The notes under the pieces were generated by a model that saw only the letters and a program-made list of their open reading frames with translations, searched no databases and was not told where the DNA came from. From an uncultured Gammaproteobacteria bacterium (GTDB taxonomy: Bacteria; Patescibacteriota; Microgenomatia; PFEM01; DATLAM01), in assembly GCA_964566925.1 (NCBI GenBank), contig CAZMIZ010000002.1, positions 8,647 through 72,646 of the forward strand: 64,000 nt of DNA. The letters are read 5' to 3'. Positions 338 through 53,156 of the stretch are shown piece by piece. Each line of letters begins with the position of its first letter. The first letter of the stretch is position 1. The translations under genes and the position numbers were made by a program.

Positions 338-1006
338 ATGACCGATTATATTGCTCTTCCCAGCCAAAAGAGATATCTAAAAAAAGTAAAATCTCTCACT
401 AGGCCCTATAAGGTGGTAGCTTTAGGAGTTTCTTTGACAATCTTGCCAAAGGTCTATGCCCCAGGGGACGACAGCCTTCTTATGGCTAAGAAAATGAAGA
501 TTAAAAAAGGCGATATTGTTCTTGATTTGTGTAGCGGCTCTGGGATAGTTGCTATAGCGGCGGCAAAGACTGCCCGAAAAGTGATTGCCAGTGACATTAA
601 TCCCCAGGCAGTTAGGAATATTAAGATTAATGTTGAGAAGCTTAAATTAAAGAATGTTGAAGTAATCCAAAGCGATCTTTTCCAGAAGATAAGAGGAGGA
701 TTTGATGTGATCACTATCAATCCGCCTTATTCTGATCGTCAAGCCAAAGATAGAGTTGAAAGGATGTTCTGGGATTCAGGCAACAGTACGACTAAGAGGT
801 TTTTCGGGGAGGTGAAAAATTTTTTAAAGCCTGGAGGGAGAATCTATTTTGGTTGGGCAAACTTCGCTGATTTAGACATAGAATTGCCTAATAGGTTAGC
901 AAAACAGTTTGATTTTTCTATAAGGAAGGCGGCCGAGGTTAGACCTAAAGGTGAAGATTATAAGTTCTTATTGTTTGAAATAAGACCGAAAAGAGAAGGA
1001 AAATAA
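338..1006 (+). CDS. class I SAM-dependent methyltransferase with NPPY motif (HemK/PrmC-like small methyltransferase domain)
   Basis: VLDLCSGSGIVAIAAA is a glycine-rich SAM-binding motif I. DVITINPPY is the N5-glutamine/N6-adenine methyltransferase NPPY motif. A PGDDSLL motif lies upstream. Confidence 0.6.
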   Translation: MTDYIALPSQKRYLKKVKSLTRPYKVVALGVSLTILPKVYAPGDDSLLMAKKMKIKKGDIVLDLCSGSGIVAIAAAKTARKVIASDINPQAVRNIKINVEKLKLKNVEVIQSDLFQKIRGGFDVITINPPYSDRQAKDRVERMFWDSGNSTTKRFFGEVKNFLKPGGRIYFGWANFADLDIELPNRLAKQFDFSIRKAAEVRPKGEDYKFLLFEIRPKREGK

Positions 1007-1050
1007 ACTCCAATTTTCGCCTATTTTATAGTATAATAAGAGTATCTTTT

Positions 1051-1270
1051 GGCGCGGTGGCGGAATGAAAGTTGCTTTAATAACTTTGAATCGCTTTCGG
1101 CGATTGGGCAACGCGCCCGCCTAAATTTGCCGAGGTGCTGGAATTGGTAGACAGGCGGGTCTCAAAAACCTGTGGTTGGTAACAACCGTGAGGGTTCGAC
1201 TCCCTCCCTCGGCACAATTTTAGCAGGTGGTAGGCAACTACCGTGTGGGTTCGACTCCCACCCGCGCCAC
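1051..1270 (+). other. interrupted or nested tRNA-like element: outer 5' and 3' tRNA-like halves flanking an embedded tRNA-Leu
   Basis: 1051-1057 GGCGCGG pairs perfectly with 1262-1268 CCGCGCC, followed by discriminator A. The 3' segment carries a type-II variable arm (GGTAG-GCAA-CTACC) and a T-arm GTGGGTTCGACTCCCAC identical in loop to the inner tRNA. The 5' segment has U8 G9 and a GCG...CGC D-stem with a GAAT...TGGGCAA D-loop-like sequence interrupted by about 38 nt. A candidate anticodon stem CCCGC/GCAGG (one C·A mismatch) is split by the whole inner tRNA. No clean 7-nt anticodon loop can be reconstructed. Confidence 0.35.
1129..1214 (+). tRNA. tRNA-Leu (anticodon CAA), type II with long variable arm
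   Basis: Acceptor stem GCCGAGG/CCTCGGC, U8 G9, D-arm CTG-GAATTGGTAGA-CAG, anticodon stem CGGGT/ACCTG, loop CTCAAAA (anticodon CAA), 17-nt variable arm TGGTTGGTAACAACCGT, T-arm GAGGGTTCGACTCCCTC, discriminator A. CCA is not encoded. Confidence 0.85.
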
Positions 1271-1272
1271 TT

Positions 1273-1836
1273 ATGATTTCTATAACCGAATTAAGAAACG
1301 GCACCACTTTTCAAGAGGGTGGAAAACCCTTTTTGGTTTTGGATTACAAACACACCAAATTAGGTCGGGGCAAGGCGAATATTAAGATCAAAGTCAAAGA
1401 TCTTCTTTCGGGCCGGATTTTAGAGAAAACTTATATCTCCGGAGCTAAAGTGGAGCCAGTCGAGACCCAAAAGAGGCAGATGCAATATCTTTACCGGGAT
1501 GGAGAAAATTTTGTTTTCATGGATCCGAAAAGCTTTGAGCAAGCTACCTTTTCTTCCAAACTTCTAGGCGAGCAGGGCAGGTTTTTGAAAGAAGGCCAAC
1601 TAGTGTCGATTCTTTTTGGAGAAAAGAAGGCTCTTTTTGTTGAAATGCCAATCGGCGTGGTTTTTACTGTCAAAGAAACCGGTCCCGGCGTTAAGGGCGA
1701 CACGGCTACCAGATCTTTTAAGCCGGCTACTTTAGAAAATAGAGTTGTTGTTAAGGTGCCTTTGTTTATTAAAGTTGGTGACCAGGTGAAGATCGACACC
1801 AGAACCGGTGAATACCTCGAGAGGGCGGGGAATTAG
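1273..1836 (+). CDS. efp: elongation factor P
   Basis: MISITELRNGTTFQEGGKPFLVLDYKHTKLGRGKANIKIKVKDLLSG... matches the EF-P KOW and OB domains. The ATG at 1273 lies immediately after the tRNA-like locus. The tracked ORF start at 1243 would overlap the tRNA. Confidence 0.9.
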   Translation: MISITELRNGTTFQEGGKPFLVLDYKHTKLGRGKANIKIKVKDLLSGRILEKTYISGAKVEPVETQKRQMQYLYRDGENFVFMDPKSFEQATFSSKLLGEQGRFLKEGQLVSILFGEKKALFVEMPIGVVFTVKETGPGVKGDTATRSFKPATLENRVVVKVPLFIKVGDQVKIDTRTGEYLERAGN

Positions 1837-8425: not shown

Positions 8426-9199
8426 ATGATGACCAAAAGACAGAAATTTGTTATCACCACTGCCATTTTATCGGTTGGGCTTTTAGCGATTCAGATCGCC
8501 AATGTTACCTGGCGCTACCAGGCGATTGGTGTTTTAAGCATTTTAACTTATCTTTTGGCGGCCTGGTCGCTCCGGGAAGGTTTAGATGGGATTGAATGGT
8601 TGACCGTTTTGACTTTGCCACCTCTTTTTACGGCCGGGGTTGGCCTTTTTTATTTTTTGTTGCCGGCTCGCTGGTTAACCCGTTTACCGGTAGCGGCCGC
8701 TTTTGGTTTAGGCACTTATGCACTTCTTTTAACAGAAAATATTTTTTCAGTGGCTTCAATCAGAACGATTCAGCTTTTCCGAGCCGCCCAAGCCGTTGGT
8801 TTCTTGCTTACTTTAGTGACCGCTTTTTTCCTTTATGATACGATGTTTTCTTTTCGGCTTTCGTTTTGGGCCAATGCCTTACTAACTTTAATGATCAGTT
8901 TTCCGATTCTTTTGCAAGGTCTTTGGTCAGTCAAATTAGAAAAGAAAATCAGTGGTCAGGTTTGGCTTTATACTTTGGGACTATCTTTGGTTTTAGCTGA
9001 GGCAGCGGTCGTCATTTCTTTCTGGCCAGTGAATATTGCCTCGGGATCACTTTTCCTGGTTTCGGTGATGTATATCATCTTAGGTCTTTCCCAGCAGCAC
9101 TTGGCTCATCGGCTCTTTTCCCGAACGATTCAAGAATATCTAGGTGTGGGACTTGCGGTTTTGGGTATAATATTGTTAACCACTCATTGGGGAGGGTGA
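8426..9199 (+). CDS. hypothetical integral membrane protein
   Basis: 257-aa ORF with 7-8 predicted TM segments. No family recognised. Confidence 0.5.
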   Translation: MMTKRQKFVITTAILSVGLLAIQIANVTWRYQAIGVLSILTYLLAAWSLREGLDGIEWLTVLTLPPLFTAGVGLFYFLLPARWLTRLPVAAAFGLGTYALLLTENIFSVASIRTIQLFRAAQAVGFLLTLVTAFFLYDTMFSFRLSFWANALLTLMISFPILLQGLWSVKLEKKISGQVWLYTLGLSLVLAEAAVVISFWPVNIASGSLFLVSVMYIILGLSQQHLAHRLFSRTIQEYLGVGLAVLGIILLTTHWGG

Positions 9200-9200
9200 A

Positions 9201-9731
9201 ATGGATGAGAAGAAAGGGCGATCAGAGGGACGGCCTCCAAAAGAAAAAGGACCTAAATCTTATGTGATGAAGGTGCCACCTTGGGCAGTTCTTTATGCAG
9301 ACCCTTTAATAGGAGTAACTTCTAAGGTGGGTTTAGTAAGAGATTTTTTTTCTTTGGAAGAGGTAGAGCCTCCAGAAGGAAAGGCCGAAAGACCAGTTGA
9401 AGAATTCGCCATGATCCGCTGTCTTCAGAGAGAAAGGCGGACCATCGGAGAAGAGAATGGAAGAAAGATTCGGTGGGATCGGGTCGAGTTCCAGGTGATG
9501 GAGAGAAACAACGGGGATGAGTTTCCAGTGACTAAATGGGGTTATTTTGCCACTCTAGAGCGGACAGAAGAAGAAAAGGAAGCCAGGGAGCCATTTCAAT
9601 ATTTAGGCGAAGATGGTTTTCGCAGCGGTCCGAGATTAAAAGAGAAACCTGCTCCGGGACTTCAACATCAATTTGTTATTTCTAAAAAACTAGCGCCCGT
9701 TGGCCAAAGAGGAAGGCCACTAAAAAGATAA
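9201..9731 (+). CDS. hypothetical protein
   Basis: 176-aa charged ORF with no recognisable motif, immediately 5' of the long ORF-free region. Confidence 0.35.
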   Translation: MDEKKGRSEGRPPKEKGPKSYVMKVPPWAVLYADPLIGVTSKVGLVRDFFSLEEVEPPEGKAERPVEEFAMIRCLQRERRTIGEENGRKIRWDRVEFQVMERNNGDEFPVTKWGYFATLERTEEEKEAREPFQYLGEDGFRSGPRLKEKPAPGLQHQFVISKKLAPVGQRGRPLKR

Positions 9732-10255: not shown

Positions 10256-10738
10256 ATGGAGAGGGCTTCTCTAGAGAAGAGGTTGGAATAAAAATCTTAA
10301 TGCCTTCTTATTAGGGCCTAATGATTAACTATCCTTTATTTTAGAATTTTTTATTTCTTATTTCTCTATTTTTGGCTGCTGACCAGTTTTTTTGTTTTTC
10401 AAATAAAACCCGAAAGAGCCCACTCCCCTACTATAGGATATATGTCTAAAAAACTGGAACAAAGTTTGCCAAAAAATAATAAAAAAATCAAAAAATAGCC
10501 AAAATTTTATTAAGCAAACGATTAGTTAGTCGCCCTGTTTTCAAATCAAGCCTTAGAAAGCATCTAAGAGGCTGGTCAGCTTCAAGAAGAATCGTTTTAA
10601 ACCTTAAAAAAGAGAGACTAAATGGAAATTTCAATCTTTTGGGAGAAATTTTTGGTCACCTCTGTTTATTTTTCTAAAAATTTTTGATTAGGCTGATTGC
10701 CGGATAATGATCGGCGAATAAACGTTAATAAAAAATTT

Positions 10739-10795
10739 ACCGACATTATTTTTATGTCGCACAATATTGACACTGAGCTGGTCGAAGTGTAAACT
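10739..10795 (+). promoter_or_regulatory. candidate promoter/operator of the recombinase gene
   Basis: Inverted repeat CGACAT-tattttt-ATGTCG (10741-10759), then TTGACA (10767-10772), a 17-nt spacer and TAAACT (10790-10795). The ATG at 10804 gives a very short leader. Confidence 0.4.
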
Positions 10796-10803
10796 ATAGA
10801 TTA

Positions 10804-11763
10804 ATGGCTGCCCCAAAAGAAAAAAAATTACCGAGAAGCGAGTTAGATCAATTAATTGAAGAGTTTTTAGAGCATTTAGAAATTGAACGCCAGTGTTCCC
10901 CTCTTACTATCCGCAATTATCGTCATTATCTAGGCCGTTTTTCTGATTGGTTAAAGAAAAATAATCCCAAGGCTAAGGCGAGCTCAATAAATTTGGAAAT
11001 AATCAAAAAATATAGGGTATTTTTAGCCCGATTTATAGCCCCAAACGATGCCCCCCTTTCGCGTAGCACTCAAAGCTATCATGTGATAGCCTTGCGCGCT
11101 TTTTTGCGCTGGCTGGCCAAGCACGATTACCCCACCCTTTCACCTGAAAAGGTCGATCTTCCTAAAAGCGAATCACGTTCTTTAAAATTCCTTTCGGCCG
11201 ATCAAATGGAACATTTTTTAAACCAGCCGCGGATCTCAACTGACATCGGCTTGCGGGATAAGGCAATTTTAGAGGTTTTGTTTTCCACCGGCCTCCGAGT
11301 TAGCGAATTAGTTAAACTTAATCGTGATCAAATCGACTTAAAAAGACGAGAATTTGGCGTAGTGGGCAAAGGCGGCCGGGCTCGAGTTGTTTTTCTGTCG
11401 GAAAGAGCGGTTAAATGGTTGAAAAAATATCTTGACTCTCGTCAAGATTCTTGGAAGCCTTTATTTATTCATTATAAAGGCGGTAAAGACGAAGGCAAAG
11501 ATGGTGGGAGGATGAGATTAACCGCCCGTTCGGTTCAGCGAATCGTGGAAAAATATTCCCAAAAAGCCAAACTACCAGTTAAAGCTACTCCTCATGTCAT
11601 TCGTCATTCTTTTGCCACCGATCTTTTGGTGGCCGGCGCTGATCTAAGAGCGGTTCAAGAGATGTTGGGCCACAAAAACATTTCCACCACCCAGATTTAT
11701 ACTCACGTCACTAACCGCCAGCTCCGTTCAATCCATCAGGCGTTTCATGGCAAAGGGAGATAA
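10804..11763 (+). CDS. tyrosine site-specific recombinase, XerC/XerD-like
   Basis: N-terminal SAM-like core-binding region (LTIRNYRHYL). C-terminal catalytic region ATPHVIRHSFATDLLVAGADLRAVQEMLGHKNISTTQIYTHV carrying the R..H..R..Y motif. Confidence 0.8.
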   Translation: MAAPKEKKLPRSELDQLIEEFLEHLEIERQCSPLTIRNYRHYLGRFSDWLKKNNPKAKASSINLEIIKKYRVFLARFIAPNDAPLSRSTQSYHVIALRAFLRWLAKHDYPTLSPEKVDLPKSESRSLKFLSADQMEHFLNQPRISTDIGLRDKAILEVLFSTGLRVSELVKLNRDQIDLKRREFGVVGKGGRARVVFLSERAVKWLKKYLDSRQDSWKPLFIHYKGGKDEGKDGGRMRLTARSVQRIVEKYSQKAKLPVKATPHVIRHSFATDLLVAGADLRAVQEMLGHKNISTTQIYTHVTNRQLRSIHQAFHGKGR

Positions 11764-15319: not shown

Positions 15320-16423
15320 ATGAGGAAGATAAACTATTTTAAAACCAAAAAAGGCAAAATTCCTTTGCCCACCTTTTTCCCGGATGCCACCCGGGCGGTG
15401 GTCAGAACCATTGACTCTGAAGATATTAAAAAGACCAAGACCCCAGGAATTTTGGTTAATACTTATCATCTTTATCGGGAATTAGGCGGAAAAGTCTTAG
15501 CCAAACACGGCGGTGTTCGCCAATTTATGGCCTGGGACGGCGCCGTTATTTCCGATTCCGGCGGCTTTCAGGTTTTGACTCTAGCTAAGGCCGCCACAAA
15601 AAAAGGTTCGGTGGTTGACGAGGGGGTTACTTTTCGGCCGGCCCGGGATAAGAAGATTCTTTTTACTCCCGAAAAATCAATTCGCTTTCAAATGGCTTTA
15701 AAAACGGACATGGTTATTGTTCTTGACGACTTTACTGAGCCTAAAGCAAATTATCAAAAAGCCAAAGAGACCGTTGATCGTTCTGTTCTTTGGGCGAGAC
15801 GCTCAAAAGAAGAATTTTTAAAATGCTGTGAGGAGGAGGGTTTGACCGAAAAAAATCGACCTTTTATCATGGCGGTGGTTCAGGGTGGTGATTACCTTGA
15901 TCTTAGGAAAGAATGCGCGGAGCGCTTGGCCGAAATTGGGTTTGATGCCTTTGGTTACGGCGGTTGGCCCCTCACCCCCGAGGGAAAGTTTGATTATCCA
16001 ACAGTTAAAGTAGTGGCTGATTCTGCTCCTGATGACTATTTTCTTTTTGGCTTGGGGGTGGGCAAACCCGAAGAGATTGTGGGTTGTATTGATTTGGGCT
16101 ATCATATGTTTGATTGTGTTTTGCCTACCCGAGATGCCCGCCACCGCCGGCTTTATGTTTACGAAGCAAATTCGCTTGACAAAATTAACATCCGTAAGCC
16201 CAAATTTTATTCCTTCTTTACACCGGACAAGGAAAAGTATTATCAAGATGATCAGCCGGTGAGTCAAGCCTGTGATTGTTTACTTTGCACCAAATATACC
16301 CGGGCCTATCTCGCCCATCTTTTCCGGATTGAAGAATCAACTGCTTTGCGCCTTTCAACCATCCATAATCTTCGTTTCTATTCTCTGTTGATGGAAAAAC
16401 TAAGGGAAGAAGTTAAGAAATAA
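15320..16423 (+). CDS. tgt: queuine tRNA-ribosyltransferase (tRNA-guanine transglycosylase)
   Basis: VISDSGGFQVLTLA catalytic region and the C-terminal zinc site CDCLLCTKYTRAYLAHL. Confidence 0.85.
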   Translation: MRKINYFKTKKGKIPLPTFFPDATRAVVRTIDSEDIKKTKTPGILVNTYHLYRELGGKVLAKHGGVRQFMAWDGAVISDSGGFQVLTLAKAATKKGSVVDEGVTFRPARDKKILFTPEKSIRFQMALKTDMVIVLDDFTEPKANYQKAKETVDRSVLWARRSKEEFLKCCEEEGLTEKNRPFIMAVVQGGDYLDLRKECAERLAEIGFDAFGYGGWPLTPEGKFDYPTVKVVADSAPDDYFLFGLGVGKPEEIVGCIDLGYHMFDCVLPTRDARHRRLYVYEANSLDKINIRKPKFYSFFTPDKEKYYQDDQPVSQACDCLLCTKYTRAYLAHLFRIEESTALRLSTIHNLRFYSLLMEKLREEVKK

Positions 16424-52091: not shown

Positions 52092-53156
52092 TTATACCAA
52101 AGATGAGAGCCGTTTTAAAGCGTGGAGTTTTTCGTAGTGGCCCAATTTGGCCTTATTGACGCTCTCTTTGAGAAAGGCGATTGATTGGTTGTAGGTTTTT
52201 TGATCGACTGGATAAGGGATGCCATCTTTGCCTCCATGGGCGTAAGAATATCTGGCTGGGTCGCGGGTGGAGGCTGGAGAGCCATAGACCAGCTCGGCAA
52301 TCAATGATAAAGCGCGGATCGTTTTTGGTCCCACTCCTTTCATCCCCAAAAGAATTTCGAAATCTTCTGGTTGTCTTTCATAAGTGCTTAAAAAGATTTT
52401 TTTAAGATTTTTAGGATTGATGTCGCTGATTAAGAGCTGATGTCTTTCGGGGAGTTTGATTATTTGGAGTTTTTGGATAGTTTTGGCTATTTTTTCCGGC
52501 TTCAAACGAGAAACTCTAGTCGAGGTTTTTCGATTTTTCTTGCTTTGACTGGCAACTAAATTGAGAACCGATGAATGGTGATCGCAGGCAATCCCAGTAT
52601 GAGGTTCGTTGACAAAGTTAGCTACCTTATCCGACAGCCAGTGGTAGCGGCGAGCCCAGCGATTAGAGGGATTCATTCCCTGCTGGACGACAGCCCACTT
52701 ACCCGCTTTGGTGGTAAAAAAAGTATGATGGTAGAGCTGATAGCTGTCTTGGAGAGCATTGTTATCCACTTTAGCCGCCATTTTTGAGGCATAGATCAAA
52801 GGCTGGCTATCAAAAGAATATTTTTGGCTGGCCTTTTCAATTTCTGATGGAGTTTTTCGAGAAGCCCTACCTTTACCACCAAAAATAAAAAGACCTAAAT
52901 CTTTAATTGGTCGCAAGCCTTCTTTAATGGCCCCACAGGTAGTGGTCGTCAAGCCTGACGAATGCCAATCAAAACCCAGAACACAGCCAAAAGCTTGAAA
53001 CCAGTCGGGGTTGGTAATTTTTTTCAAATACTCGTCTTCTCCCTGTTCGGTGATGAGAATCAGGGAAATTTCTCGAGCCAGCTTAGTCATTTTTTCAAAA
53101 AGCCAACGAGGAGCAAAACCATAATGAAGAGGTAAATCAGCGGTGCCGGTTTTCAT
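52092..53156 (-). CDS. DUF763-family protein
   Basis: N-terminal MKTGTADLPLHYGFAPRWLF and an overall composition matching DUF763 from memory. HhH-like GVGPKTIRAL. Confidence 0.55.
   Translation of the reverse strand: MKTGTADLPLHYGFAPRWLFEKMTKLAREISLILITEQGEDEYLKKITNPDWFQAFGCVLGFDWHSSGLTTTTCGAIKEGLRPIKDLGLFIFGGKGRASRKTPSEIEKASQKYSFDSQPLIYASKMAAKVDNNALQDSYQLYHHTFFTTKAGKWAVVQQGMNPSNRWARRYHWLSDKVANFVNEPHTGIACDHHSSVLNLVASQSKKNRKTSTRVSRLKPEKIAKTIQKLQIIKLPERHQLLISDINPKNLKKIFLSTYERQPEDFEILLGMKGVGPKTIRALSLIAELVYGSPASTRDPARYSYAHGGKDGIPYPVDQKTYNQSIAFLKESVNKAKLGHYEKLHALKRLSSLV

What the first reader, a model, noticed from the sequence alone, without database searches (positions are those of the whole stretch)
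1051..1270. Complete tRNA-Leu(CAA) nested between two halves of a second, interrupted tRNA-like gene
Seen directly: GGCGCGG at 1051-1057 is the exact complement of CCGCGCC at 1262-1268, followed by a discriminator A. The 3' segment carries a Leu-like 17-nt variable arm and a T-arm identical to that of the inner tRNA. The 5' segment carries U8 G9, a GCG...CGC D-stem and a GAAT...TGGGCAA D-loop that would match the inner tRNA D-loop once about 38 nt are removed. That 38-nt stretch itself forms two hairpins, aaagtt/aacttt and aatcgc/gcgatt. A candidate anticodon stem CCCGC/GCAGG brackets the whole 86-nt tRNA-Leu. The flanking AAATT/AATTT segments can pair to extend the inner acceptor stem. This could be a multi-intron or split tRNA whose intron hosts another tRNA, a pseudogene created by insertion of a tRNA into a duplicated tRNA-Leu, or an unknown structured RNA. 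No canonical 7-nt anticodon loop could be reconstructed, which is why pseudogene remains possible.
Basis: seen in the sequence. Interest (0 to 1): 0.6.

Follow-up and report, generated by a model that had tools for sequence, protein, structure and literature searches.

The report
Broken tRNA-Leu gene enclosing replacement tRNA
In an uncultivated Patescibacteria genome, the resident leucine tRNA gene has been split by 160 bases of foreign DNA that carry a complete copy of the same tRNA from another lineage, so the outer "gene" is most likely a dead shell that now serves only as leader and trailer of the inner one.

Summary
Bases 1051-1066 and 1227-1269 are the two ends of a genuine tRNA-Leu(CAA) gene. 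The closest relative found (L082/L083, EF-P 93% identical) carries that gene uninterrupted at the same place, with an identical promoter region and the same 3-base gap to the EF-P start.

In the window, 27 internal bases of that gene are replaced by a 160-base block (1067-1226). The block holds 62 bases of unknown origin, a complete tRNA-Leu(CAA) (1129-1214) and its native CAATTTT trailer. The inner tRNA is 85/86 identical to the tRNA-Leu(CAA) of a more distant lineage (L091) and only 67/86 identical to the resident type.

No canonical outer tRNA can be rebuilt. It has a 38-base D-loop insert, a C·A mismatch in the anticodon stem and no 7-base anticodon loop. There is no group I core and no bulge-helix-bulge motif.

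The DnaB–EF-P spacer is an insertion hot spot in this clade. One other lineage (L094/L216) shows a full tRNA followed by a 3' remnant.

Best reading: the resident gene was recently replaced by recombination, and the outer part is a pseudogene shell.

Separately, I found cleanly nested tRNA genes in viral contigs. These keep a small chance alive for a functional reading.

The parts
1007..1050 (+). Promoter/leader region of the resident tRNA gene, with -10 TATAAT at 1032-1037. It now drives the whole composite transcript.
   Evidence: 1007-1050 matches the sequence upstream of the intact tRNA in L082 with no mismatch (reading; blastn block 989-1066 has 2 mismatches and 3 gaps, located by inspection upstream at the DnaB/MTase stop). 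The TATAGTATAAT motif is also kept in L085 and L089. Promoter function is inferred.
1051..1066 (+). 5' remnant of the resident tRNA-Leu(CAA): acceptor strand, U8 G9, D-stem strand and start of the D loop.
   Evidence: 16/16 identical to L082:2789-2804 and to L083.
1067..1128 (+). 5' part of the foreign block. It holds 32-38 nt of unknown origin with two 6-bp hairpins, then a stretch resembling positions ~8-35 of a third tRNA-Leu (GGCGATTGGGCAACGCGCCCGCCT), then AAATTT.
   Evidence: No homologue in the window or in any locus held. It differs from L082 at 6 of 18 aligned D-loop/anticodon-stem positions, while the flanks are identical.
1129..1214 (+). Complete, canonical tRNA-Leu(CAA). This is the functional gene of the locus.
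   Evidence: ARAGORN. Rfam RF00005, 53.1 bits. 85/86 identical to the tRNA-Leu(CAA) of L091 and 67/86 to the L082 type.
1215..1226 (+). 3' end of the foreign block: native trailer CAATTTT of the incoming tRNA, plus AGCAG.
   Evidence: The same CAAttt/CAAaat trailer follows tRNA-Leu(CAA) in L094/L216, L218, L217 and L091. Identity to L082 resumes at 1227.
1227..1269 (+). 3' remnant of the resident tRNA-Leu(CAA): last base of the anticodon stem, variable arm, T arm, acceptor strand and discriminator A.
   Evidence: Window 1227-1270 (44 nt: the remnant plus one base) is 44/44 identical to L082:2832-2875 and to L083.
1273..1836 (+). EF-P gene. Its ATG lies 3 nt after the discriminator of the outer shell.
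   Evidence: Pfam EFP domains. The same 3-nt spacing follows the intact tRNA in L082, L085 and L089. Co-transcription and release by tRNA 3' processing are inferred.
338..1006 (+). HemK2/MTQ2-like methyltransferase gene inserted between DnaB and the tRNA promoter. It is a separate insertion at the same hot spot.
   Evidence: TIGR00537, 101.6 bits (cut-off 87). Present only in the window and L084. Absent in L082, L085 and L089.

Best explanation
The outer element is the orthologue of the single tRNA-Leu(CAA) gene that sits between dnaB and efp in this Microgenomates/Woesebacteria-like clade.

**What happened (inferred).** In the window's lineage, a DNA-level recombination event replaced 27 internal bases of that gene (D loop to anticodon stem) with a 160-base foreign block. 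The block contains a complete tRNA-Leu(CAA) allele from another lineage (L091 type), its native trailer and 62 bases of scrap. Part of the scrap looks like a piece of a third tRNA-Leu.

**Result.** The inner tRNA is now the working tRNA-Leu(CAA). The outer halves no longer make a decoding tRNA.

**How the locus probably works (inferred).**
- Transcription starts at the old promoter.
- RNase P cuts at G1129, removing a 78-nt leader that includes the old 5' half.
- RNase Z cuts after A1214.
- The old 3' half remains as a trailer abutting the efp start codon.

The event is probably recent, and it is one of several rearrangements at a recombination hot spot.
For: 1. The intact orthologue is at the same site in L082 and L083. 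Upstream sequence is identical, 16+43 outer bases are identical, and the spacing to efp is identical. Flanking genes are only 91-93% identical.
2. L085 and L089 also have one intact tRNA-Leu(CAA) there.
3. The inner tRNA is 85/86 identical to the L091 tRNA, although L091 flanks are 73% identical. It is 67/86 identical to the resident type.
4. The outer tRNA cannot be restored. It has a 38-nt D-loop insert, a C·A mismatch and 16 residual loop bases. ARAGORN finds nothing unless both inserts are deleted by hand, and then only a non-canonical model. Rfam finds no intron or ribozyme.
5. Inner and outer share the anticodon, so nothing is lost.
6. The locus is a hot spot:
   - methyltransferase (window, L084);
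   - LAGLIDADG ORF abutting the tRNA (L084);
   - PIN toxin module (L217);
   - HinfI-type restriction-modification genes (L218);
   - tRNA orientation flips between lineages.
7. L094/L216 show a comparable scar: a full tRNA-Leu(CAA), then CAATTTTT, then a decaying 59-nt 3' remnant of the L217-type resident tRNA, with no 5' half.
8. A full tRNA followed by a 3' fragment is a common scar in viral contigs.
Against: - All outer stems that derive from the resident gene are still perfect, and the halves show no substitutions relative to L082. This fits a recent event but equally fits constraint.
- The imported middle still keeps 4 of 5 anticodon-stem pairs, and the flanks of the inner tRNA pair (AAATT/AATTT). 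Pure scrap need not do this.
- The mechanism that put a whole tRNA into the anticodon loop is not identified. The origin of 1067-1128 is unknown.
- Only a handful of relatives could be sampled.
- Cleanly nested tRNA genes exist in phage contigs, so nesting is not always decay.
- No expression data were available.
Confidence: 0.72

Rival explanations
1. The shell no longer decodes but is retained as an exapted processing scaffold. The outer acceptor stem plus T arm still forms a tRNA-like minihelix. RNase P and RNase Z cut it at 1051 and after 1269. This defines the ends of the tRNA precursor and releases a nearly leaderless efp mRNA (5'-CUU-AUG).
For: - The efp ATG lies exactly 3 nt after the tRNA discriminator in the window, L082, L085 and L089, with no room for a ribosome-binding site.
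- In lineages where the tRNA is on the other strand, a TAAAAT -10-like hexamer (my own reading; the promoter scan was run only on the window) ends about 8 nt before the efp ATG, which fits a leaderless efp.
- The minimum-free-energy fold of 1051-1269 keeps the outer acceptor stem, variable hairpin and T arm (z = -3.96).
- The outer acceptor, D, variable and T stems are all perfect.
Against: - Perfect conservation is also expected from a recent event.
- Cleavage of the inner tRNA separates the two strands of the outer acceptor stem.
- No transcript-end data were available.
- Leaderless translation of efp is an inference.
Confidence: 0.15
2. This is a functional nested gene in which the inner tRNA acts as an intron. 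RNase P and RNase Z excise it, leaving a 3'-OH and a 5'-phosphate. An RNA ligase then joins the outer halves, and the D-loop insert is removed by an unknown route. The gene would yield two tRNAs.
For: - Viral contigs contain cleanly nested tRNA genes. In them, removal of a mature-length inner tRNA restores a perfect 7-nt anticodon loop. Examples are L270 (Lys-UUU around Asn-GTT, between nt 36/37) and L451/L140 (Arg-UCU around Phe-GAA, between nt 34/35).
- The L140 phage encodes RNA-repair-type proteins near its tRNA array.
- The window's outer stems are largely intact.
Against: - Excision of the inner tRNA in the window leaves a 16-nt loop (CUAAAUUU+CAAUUUUA), not 7 nt.
- A second, 38-nt insert sits in the D loop, and no bacterial removal route is known for it.
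- The anticodon stem has a C·A mismatch.
- The outer tRNA would duplicate the inner anticodon.
- The sister lineage has the plain gene.
- No RtcB or RNA ligase was found among the 20 window ORFs of 300 aa or more that were scanned. This is a weak test, since the window is a fraction of the genome.
Confidence: 0.05
3. The 160-nt block is a selfish, intron-like DNA insertion that spreads between tRNA-Leu alleles by gene conversion. This would resemble homing with co-conversion of flanking gene sequence, possibly triggered by a homing endonuclease acting on the tRNA gene. The outer gene is collateral damage, rescued by the tRNA the element carries.
For: - The outer middle part (D-loop 3' side and both anticodon-stem strands) differs from L082 as a block, while the ends are identical. 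This looks like a co-conversion tract from a donor that already had the nested arrangement.
- A LAGLIDADG ORF lies directly after the tRNA-Leu(CAA) in L084 (29.2 bits).
- tRNA-Leu alleles in the clade are mosaic.
Against: - There is no endonuclease gene in or next to the window's element.
- No second copy of the block was found anywhere.
- The L094/L216 scar lacks a 5' half.
Confidence: 0.06
4. Assembly chimera of two co-occurring strains.
For: The window comes from a metagenome-assembled genome. Two tRNA-Leu alleles are involved.
Against: - The Logan contig L001 is identical over 2833 nt.
- By my own inspection of the sequences, the longest exact match between the two alleles is about 13 nt, too short for k-mer mis-joins.
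- The 62-nt segment 1067-1128 belongs to neither allele's known flanks.
Confidence: 0.02

Closest known systems
tRNA genes as recombination/integration hot spots that leave partial tRNA copies (genomic-island att sites; own knowledge: Reiter et al. 1989, Williams 2002)
   Same: A tRNA gene is the target. Foreign genes accumulate beside it in relatives (methyltransferase, toxin module, restriction-modification genes). Partial tRNA remnants sit next to an intact tRNA (window, L094/L216). Many full-tRNA-plus-3'-fragment scars occur in viral contigs.
   Different: There is no integrase next to the element and no island between the halves. The two remnants are non-overlapping halves rather than direct repeats. 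The intact gene is a whole foreign allele, not a host/element chimera.
Archaeal intron-containing, multi-intron and split tRNA genes (bulge-helix-bulge introns cut by EndA and sealed by RtcB; own knowledge)
   Same: Interruptions lie in the D loop and the anticodon loop. The flanks around the insert can pair.
   Different: The genome is bacterial (DnaB, EF-P). The junctions form 2x2 and 1x2 internal loops, not 3-nt bulges around a 4-bp helix. Removal does not restore a canonical tRNA. The insert is itself a complete tRNA.
Group I introns in bacterial tRNA anticodon loops, e.g. tRNA-Leu(UAA) (bioRxiv 10.1101/2020.01.27.920355, abstract seen, for the general class; the tRNA-Leu(UAA) example is own knowledge)
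   Same: The host is a tRNA-Leu gene, the insert lies in the anticodon loop, and a LAGLIDADG ORF is present at the locus in a relative.
   Different: There is no group I core (no Rfam hit even at E<=10). The insert is only about 100 nt and consists of a tRNA.
Free-standing homing endonucleases that drive replacement of tRNA gene regions (phage T4 SegB; own knowledge)
   Same: A nuclease gene abuts a tRNA gene (L084). Alleles are replaced wholesale and are mosaic.
   Different: There is no nuclease gene in the window, and no cleavage site is known. This is only a lead.
Engineered tRNA scaffolds (an RNA inserted in place of the anticodon loop of a tRNA; own knowledge: Ponchon & Dardel 2007)
   Same: The architecture matches: outer acceptor, D and T arms enclose a structured insert that stacks on the anticodon stem.
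   Different: It is natural, the insert is a tRNA that RNase P would cut out, and nothing suggests selection for stabilisation.
Nested tRNA genes in IMG/VR viral contigs
   Same: A complete tRNA lies inside the anticodon loop of another tRNA gene. L196 and L412 also have complementary flanks and no remaining anticodon loop, like the window.
   Different: In the clean cases (L270, L451/L140) the inner tRNA has exact mature ends including CCA, sits between two loop nucleotides, and its removal restores a perfect outer tRNA with a different anticodon. The window has extra flanking bases, a second insert, a mismatch and the same anticodon inside and out.

Membership tests
tRNA pseudogene (disrupted resident gene) | An intact orthologue occupies the same syntenic position in close relatives. 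| tested here: met
   L082 and L083 (EF-P 93%), L085 and L089 each have one uninterrupted tRNA-Leu(CAA) 3 nt upstream of efp.
tRNA pseudogene (disrupted resident gene) | The canonical cloverleaf and 7-nt anticodon loop are lost. | tested here: met
   ARAGORN with or without intron mode finds no outer tRNA in the native sequence. After manual removal of both inserts it finds only a non-canonical model. Rfam sees only weak partial hits.
tRNA pseudogene (disrupted resident gene) | Function is supplied by another copy. | tested here: met
   The inner tRNA-Leu(CAA) is canonical and has the same anticodon as the intact orthologue.
tRNA pseudogene (disrupted resident gene) | No mature RNA is made from the outer halves. 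| not testable with these tools
   Needs tRNA-seq or Northern data.
Archaeal-type (BHB) tRNA intron / split tRNA | A bulge-helix-bulge motif (3-nt bulge, 4-bp helix, 3-nt bulge) at the exon-intron junctions. | tested here: not met
   Read directly from the sequence. CCCGC/GCAGG, a 2x2 loop (CT/TA), AAATT/AATTT, a 1x2 loop (T/AC), then the inner acceptor stem. No BHB can be formed around 1066/1067 or 1104/1105.
Archaeal-type (BHB) tRNA intron / split tRNA | Removal of the introns yields a canonical tRNA. | tested here: not met
   No combination of a prefix of CTAAATTT with a suffix of CAATTTTA gives a Leu anticodon loop with a purine at position 37.
Archaeal-type (BHB) tRNA intron / split tRNA | The genome encodes the splicing endonuclease EndA and a ligase. 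| tested here: inconclusive
   Neither was found among 20 window ORFs of 300 aa or more, but only about 64 kb of the genome is visible.
Group I intron in a tRNA | A conserved catalytic core detectable by covariance model. | tested here: not met
   No Intron_gpI hit at gathering threshold in the window or at E<=10 in 950-1350.
Integrative-element att site in a tRNA gene | An integrase gene and element DNA lie between direct repeats of the tRNA 3' part. | tested here: not met
   The halves do not overlap and are separated only by the 160-nt block. The nearest tyrosine recombinase (10804-11763) lies about 9.5 kb away, beyond genes that are syntenic in L085 and L089.
Nested tRNA gene of the clean viral type (L270, L451) | The inner tRNA has exact mature ends, is inserted between two anticodon-loop nucleotides, and its deletion restores a canonical outer tRNA. 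| tested here: not met
   Deleting 1129-1214/1215 does not restore an outer tRNA. The same test restores tRNA-Lys(UUU) in L270 and tRNA-Arg(UCU) in L451.

The most novel reading that the evidence does not exclude
The window's element is a bacterial member of an undescribed class of nested tRNA genes that is also seen in phage contigs. In this class the inner tRNA serves as an intron. The universal tRNA-end enzymes RNase P and RNase Z excise it, and the outer halves are then re-ligated into a second RNA. Alternatively the outer halves are kept as a tRNA-like processing scaffold that also releases the efp mRNA.
Probability: 0.08. Interest if true: 0.85.

Novelty: new variant of a known kind. Interest (0 to 1): 0.42.

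Why it matters
- **Annotation trap.** tRNA finders report only the inner gene, and gene callers extend efp into the shell.
- **Evolutionary snapshot.** The locus appears to catch an essential single-copy tRNA gene part-way through replacement by a foreign allele. It also marks the dnaB-tRNA-efp spacer as a recombination hot spot in Patescibacteria.
- **A lead of wider interest.** Following it up exposed cleanly nested tRNA genes in uncultivated phages, for which I found no published description. If those are processed by RNase P/Z and sealed by phage RNA-repair ligases, that would be a new route of tRNA splicing. That question is worth more than this locus itself.

Tried and rejected
- **EF-P scan of genome contigs.** It returned only EF-Ps of 48% identity or less from other phyla. 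The scan was wasted.
- **Methyltransferase homologues.** Only the window's own protein and L084 were found, so this gave no extra relatives.
- **Metagenome scan for a T arm followed within 45 nt by the outer variable arm.** One real hit (L094) and one chance hit (L095).
- **Viral-contig scans.**
  - The junction pattern found nothing.
  - The first 24 nt of the inner tRNA found nothing.
  - The 17-mer TGGGCAACGCGCCCGCC gave 26 chance hits in GC-rich ORFs, none of them a tRNA.
- **Origin of 1067-1128.** BLAST against the window and all loci held found nothing.
- **Remnant of a plus-strand tRNA upstream of efp in L084.** Only a marginal 12-nt match (5 of 300 shuffles reach the score).
- **ARAGORN's tRNA-Leu(UAG) model for the outer element (stem CCGCC/GGTGG).** Rejected for four reasons:
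  - it needs two bases between the D and anticodon stems;
  - it destroys the variable-arm stem;
  - it puts C at position 37;
  - it needs a 97-nt intron at position 31/32.
- **Nested regions of L270 and L451 in GenBank phages.** Not found.
- **Literature searches for nested tRNA genes.** Nothing relevant.

Full report
**1. What is in the sequence**

ARAGORN and Rfam both call only the inner tRNA-Leu(CAA) at 1129-1214/1215.

Two details need correction:
- The proposed outer anticodon stem CCCGC/GCAGG has a C·A mismatch.
- The outer and inner T arms share the loop but differ by one compensated stem pair.

The neighbours are:
- the 3' end of dnaB (to 328);
- a HemK2/MTQ2-like methyltransferase (338-1006);
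- efp, whose ATG at 1273 lies 3 nt after the outer discriminator A1269.

EF-P homologues place the organism among Microgenomates/Woesebacteria-like Patescibacteria. A Logan contig from SRR14817123 is identical over 2833 nt, which argues against a mis-assembly.

**2. The outer halves are a real tRNA gene**

I fetched the loci of the closest EF-P homologues.

The closest relatives are L082 and L083 (EF-P 93% identical; flanking DNA 91-93% identical). At the same position they have an uninterrupted tRNA-Leu(CAA):

GGCGCGGTGGCGGAATTGGCAGACGCGCGAGACTCAAAATCTCGTGGTAGGCAACTACCGTGTGGGTTCGACTCCCACCCGCGCCA

It is preceded by the same upstream bases (window 1007-1050 matches without mismatch, by my reading) and followed by the same CTT-ATG.

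The window matches this gene exactly over its first 16 nt (1051-1066) and last 43 nt (1227-1269). L085 and L089 (EF-P 73% and 69%) also carry one intact tRNA-Leu(CAA) 3 nt upstream of efp.

The outer element is therefore the resident gene, not chance complementarity and not an unknown RNA.

**3. What interrupts it**

Relative to L082, 27 internal bases are replaced by a 160-nt block at 1067-1226. The block has three parts.

- *1067-1128.* This has no homologue in the window or in any locus I hold. Its last ~30 nt resemble positions ~8-35 of some tRNA-Leu. They differ from the resident type at 6 of 18 aligned positions, although the flanks are identical. This part was therefore imported, not mutated in place.
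- *1129-1214.* This is a canonical tRNA-Leu(CAA). It is 85/86 identical to the tRNA-Leu(CAA) of L091 (NCBI GCA_012974965.1), whose efp is only 73% identical. In L091 the tRNA lies on the opposite strand upstream of efp. The inner tRNA is only 67/86 identical to the resident type.
- *1215-1226.* This starts with CAATTTT. CAAttt or CAAaat follows tRNA-Leu(CAA) genes in L094/L216, L218, L217 and L091. It is therefore the incoming gene's native trailer. That points to a DNA-level (or precursor-level) origin rather than insertion of a mature tRNA.

**4. Can the outer tRNA be functional?**

The evidence is against it:
- ARAGORN, with or without intron mode and at relaxed thresholds, finds no outer tRNA in the native sequence.
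- When I delete both the 38-nt D-loop insert and the inner tRNA, ARAGORN proposes only a tRNA-Leu(UAG). That model has a shifted anticodon stem (CCGCC/GGTGG), a further 10-nt intron, two bases between the D and anticodon stems, no variable stem and C at position 37.
- No combination of the residual loop bases (CTAAATTT … CAATTTTA) gives a 7-nt Leu anticodon loop.
- Rfam finds no group I intron or other ribozyme, even at E<=10.
- The junctions form 2x2 and 1x2 internal loops rather than a bulge-helix-bulge.
- The outer tRNA would in any case duplicate the inner anticodon.
- Among the 20 window ORFs of 300 aa or more that I scanned, none is an RtcB, RNA ligase or EndA. This is weak evidence, because only 64 kb of the genome is visible.

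**5. The locus is a hot spot**

Content and orientation of the dnaB-efp spacer vary across the relatives:

| Locus | What sits in the spacer |
|---|---|
| Window | methyltransferase |
| L084 | methyltransferase, plus a LAGLIDADG-type ORF starting 7 nt after a minus-strand tRNA-Leu(CAA) (Pfam 29.2 bits) |
| L217 | PIN toxin module |
| L218 | HinfI-type restriction-modification genes |
| L084, L091, L092, L216-L218 | tRNA on the opposite strand |

tRNA-Leu(CAA) alleles are also mosaic. For example, L092 has the L082-type body with a different acceptor stem.

My one metagenome scan looked for a T arm followed within 45 nt by the outer type of variable arm. It found a single further case, L094, which is the same organism as ENA locus L216. 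There, a full tRNA-Leu(CAA) is followed by CAATTTTT and a 59-nt 3' remnant of an L217-type resident tRNA. The remnant has a 5-nt anticodon loop and a T-stem mismatch. No 5' half lies upstream. This is a decaying scar of allele replacement at the same locus.

**6. Most likely history and mechanism**

The resident gene was hit by a recombination event that brought in a foreign allele. Candidate routes are illegitimate recombination, homology-facilitated illegitimate recombination, and gene conversion from a donor that already carried the arrangement. The foreign allele took over.

What is shown:
- orthology of the shell;
- the foreign origin of the block;
- the canonical inner gene;
- the hot spot.

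What is inferred:
- transcription from the conserved TATAAT (1032-1037);
- RNase P and RNase Z release of the inner tRNA;
- loss of decoding by the shell;
- recency of the event.

The perfect identity of the shell to L082 fits a recent event. It cannot exclude constraint.

**7. Rival readings**

- *Processing scaffold.* The constant 3-nt spacing between the tRNA discriminator and the efp ATG suggests that efp mRNA is released by tRNA 3' processing. In opposite-strand lineages a TAAAAT -10-like hexamer, which I read by eye, sits about 8 nt before the efp ATG. The shell's acceptor/T-arm minihelix could still be under selection for this role. I give this 0.15.
- *Spliced nested gene.* 0.05.
- *Selfish, homing-like block with co-conversion.* 0.06.
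- *Assembly chimera.* 0.02.

**8. A by-product: cleanly nested tRNA genes in viral contigs**

I wanted to know how common two T loops at sub-tRNA spacing are, so I scanned IMG/VR. I then tested each of 2206 ARAGORN tRNAs in 356 retrieved loci. For each, I deleted the tRNA and re-scanned for a tRNA spanning the deletion junction. Eight constructs gave such a tRNA.

The convincing cases:
- *L270.* A tRNA-Asn(GTT) with its CCA sits exactly between nt 36 and 37 of a perfect tRNA-Lys(UUU).
- *L451 and L140.* These are the same phage. The single SNP in 4775 nt falls at A76 of the inner CCA. A tRNA-Phe(GAA) sits between nt 34 and 35 of a perfect tRNA-Arg(UCU).

The less clean cases:
- L110 has an intact outer tRNA with a 10-nt residual loop.
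- L196 and L412 have intact acceptor stems (the T stem is perfect in L196; L412 has one T-stem mismatch), complementary flanks and no anticodon loop. In this they resemble the window.

L140 encodes an RlaP-like nucleotidyltransferase, a kinase+HD protein and a PD-(D/E)XK nuclease near the tRNA array.

These regions are absent from GenBank phages, and I found no paper describing nested tRNA genes.

RNase P and RNase Z/E products carry 3'-OH and 5'-phosphate ends, which an Rnl1-type ligase could seal. This is my inference from known enzymology, not a result. The window fails the defining test of this clean class, so I do not file it there.

Most other double-T-loop hits are a full tRNA followed by a 3' fragment (99 of 120 matches). 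This shows that L094-type scars are commonplace.

**9. Verdict**

It is a new variant of a known kind, namely tRNA-gene disruption and replacement at a recombination hot spot. I rate interest as moderate. A specialist would find the architecture unusual, but it is most simply explained. The more valuable lead is the clean nested tRNA genes in phage contigs.

Noticed in passing
L270:6109-6259 (IMGVR_UViG_3300013947_000465); L451:2025-2177 and L140:4971-5124 (IMGVR_UViG_3300018430_000106): These are cleanly nested tRNA genes in phage tRNA arrays. In L270 a tRNA-Asn(GTT)+CCA lies exactly between nt 36/37 of a perfect tRNA-Lys(UUU). In L451/L140 a tRNA-Phe(GAA)+CCA lies between nt 34/35 of a perfect tRNA-Arg(UCU). 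Deleting the inner tRNA restores a canonical outer tRNA. No publication was found.
   Followed up: partly
L110:4995-5145; L196:6613-6778; L412:590-750: Further nested tRNA-like arrangements in viral contigs. The L110 outer tRNA has four intact stems but a 10-nt residual loop. L196 and L412 have an intact outer acceptor stem (T stem perfect in L196, one mismatch in L412), complementary flanks around the inner tRNA and no anticodon loop, like the window.
   Followed up: partly
L140:6171-6668, 8805-9572, 10568-11464: The phage with the nested Arg/Phe tRNA encodes three proteins within 5 kb of the tRNA array. They are a PD-(D/E)XK endonuclease, an RlaP-like RNA-repair nucleotidyltransferase (28 bits) and a kinase(AAA_33)+HD protein. 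This gene set fits tRNA healing and sealing. No ligase was identified in the 13 kb held.
   Followed up: partly
L140:5082 vs L451:2135: The only difference between these two contigs over 4775 nt is A->C at position 76 (the CCA end) of the inner tRNA-Phe. This is exactly at the inner/outer junction.
   Followed up: no
loci (L338-L451 and others): A full tRNA ending in CCA, followed 10-20 nt later by a T arm, is very common in IMG/VR. In several examples the T arm is followed by a 7-nt acceptor strand, a discriminator and CCA. It accounts for 99 of 120 matches, 77 of them with a perfect 5-bp T stem. tRNA-Leu is frequent among the examples. These are probably scars of tRNA-targeted integration or replacement. 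They were not analysed further.
   Followed up: partly
L094:1-141 = L216:9441-9594 (minus strand): A full tRNA-Leu(CAA) is followed by CAATTTTT and a 59-nt 3' remnant of another tRNA-Leu(CAA). The remnant has a 5-nt anticodon loop and a C·A mismatch in the T stem. It lies at the same dnaB-efp locus in a different lineage. No 5' remnant lies upstream.
   Followed up: yes
window 1269-1275; L082:2875-2881; L085:2998-3003; L089:2998-3003: The efp start codon lies exactly 3 nt after the tRNA discriminator in all plus-strand lineages, with no room for a Shine-Dalgarno sequence. This suggests that a nearly leaderless efp mRNA is released by tRNA 3' processing.
   Followed up: partly
window 338-1006; L084:197-865: A HemK2/MTQ2-like (archaeal/eukaryotic-type) protein methyltransferase gene is inserted between dnaB and the tRNA promoter. 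It is present only in the window and L084 (78% identical). It is absent from the closest relative L082. Other homologues in 5.8 billion proteins are below 50% identity.
   Followed up: partly
L084:855-1583 (minus strand): A LAGLIDADG-type ORF (242 aa) starts 7 nt after the 3' end of the tRNA-Leu(CAA) and is apparently co-transcribed with it. It may be a free-standing homing endonuclease targeting this tRNA locus.
   Followed up: partly
L217:6234-6889; L218:5097-8404: Other cargo sits in the same dnaB-efp spacer. L217 has a PIN toxin plus a small partner ORF, together with a duplicated dnaB 3' end. L218 has a HinfI-type restriction enzyme plus an N6/N4 methylase.
   Followed up: partly
L094:258-2924 / L216:6660-9326: DnaB of this lineage carries an intein with a LAGLIDADG domain (888 aa, against about 440-455 aa in relatives).
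   Followed up: no
window 1243-1836: Gene callers extend efp to a GTG inside the outer T arm (197 aa, also in the Logan contig). The conserved start is the ATG at 1273 (187 aa).
   Followed up: yes
window 10804-11763; 52092-53156; 15320-16423: A Xer-like tyrosine recombinase lies 9.5 kb downstream of the tRNA locus, within conserved synteny. A DUF763 protein (450 bits) and a queuine tRNA-ribosyltransferase are also in the window.
   Followed up: no
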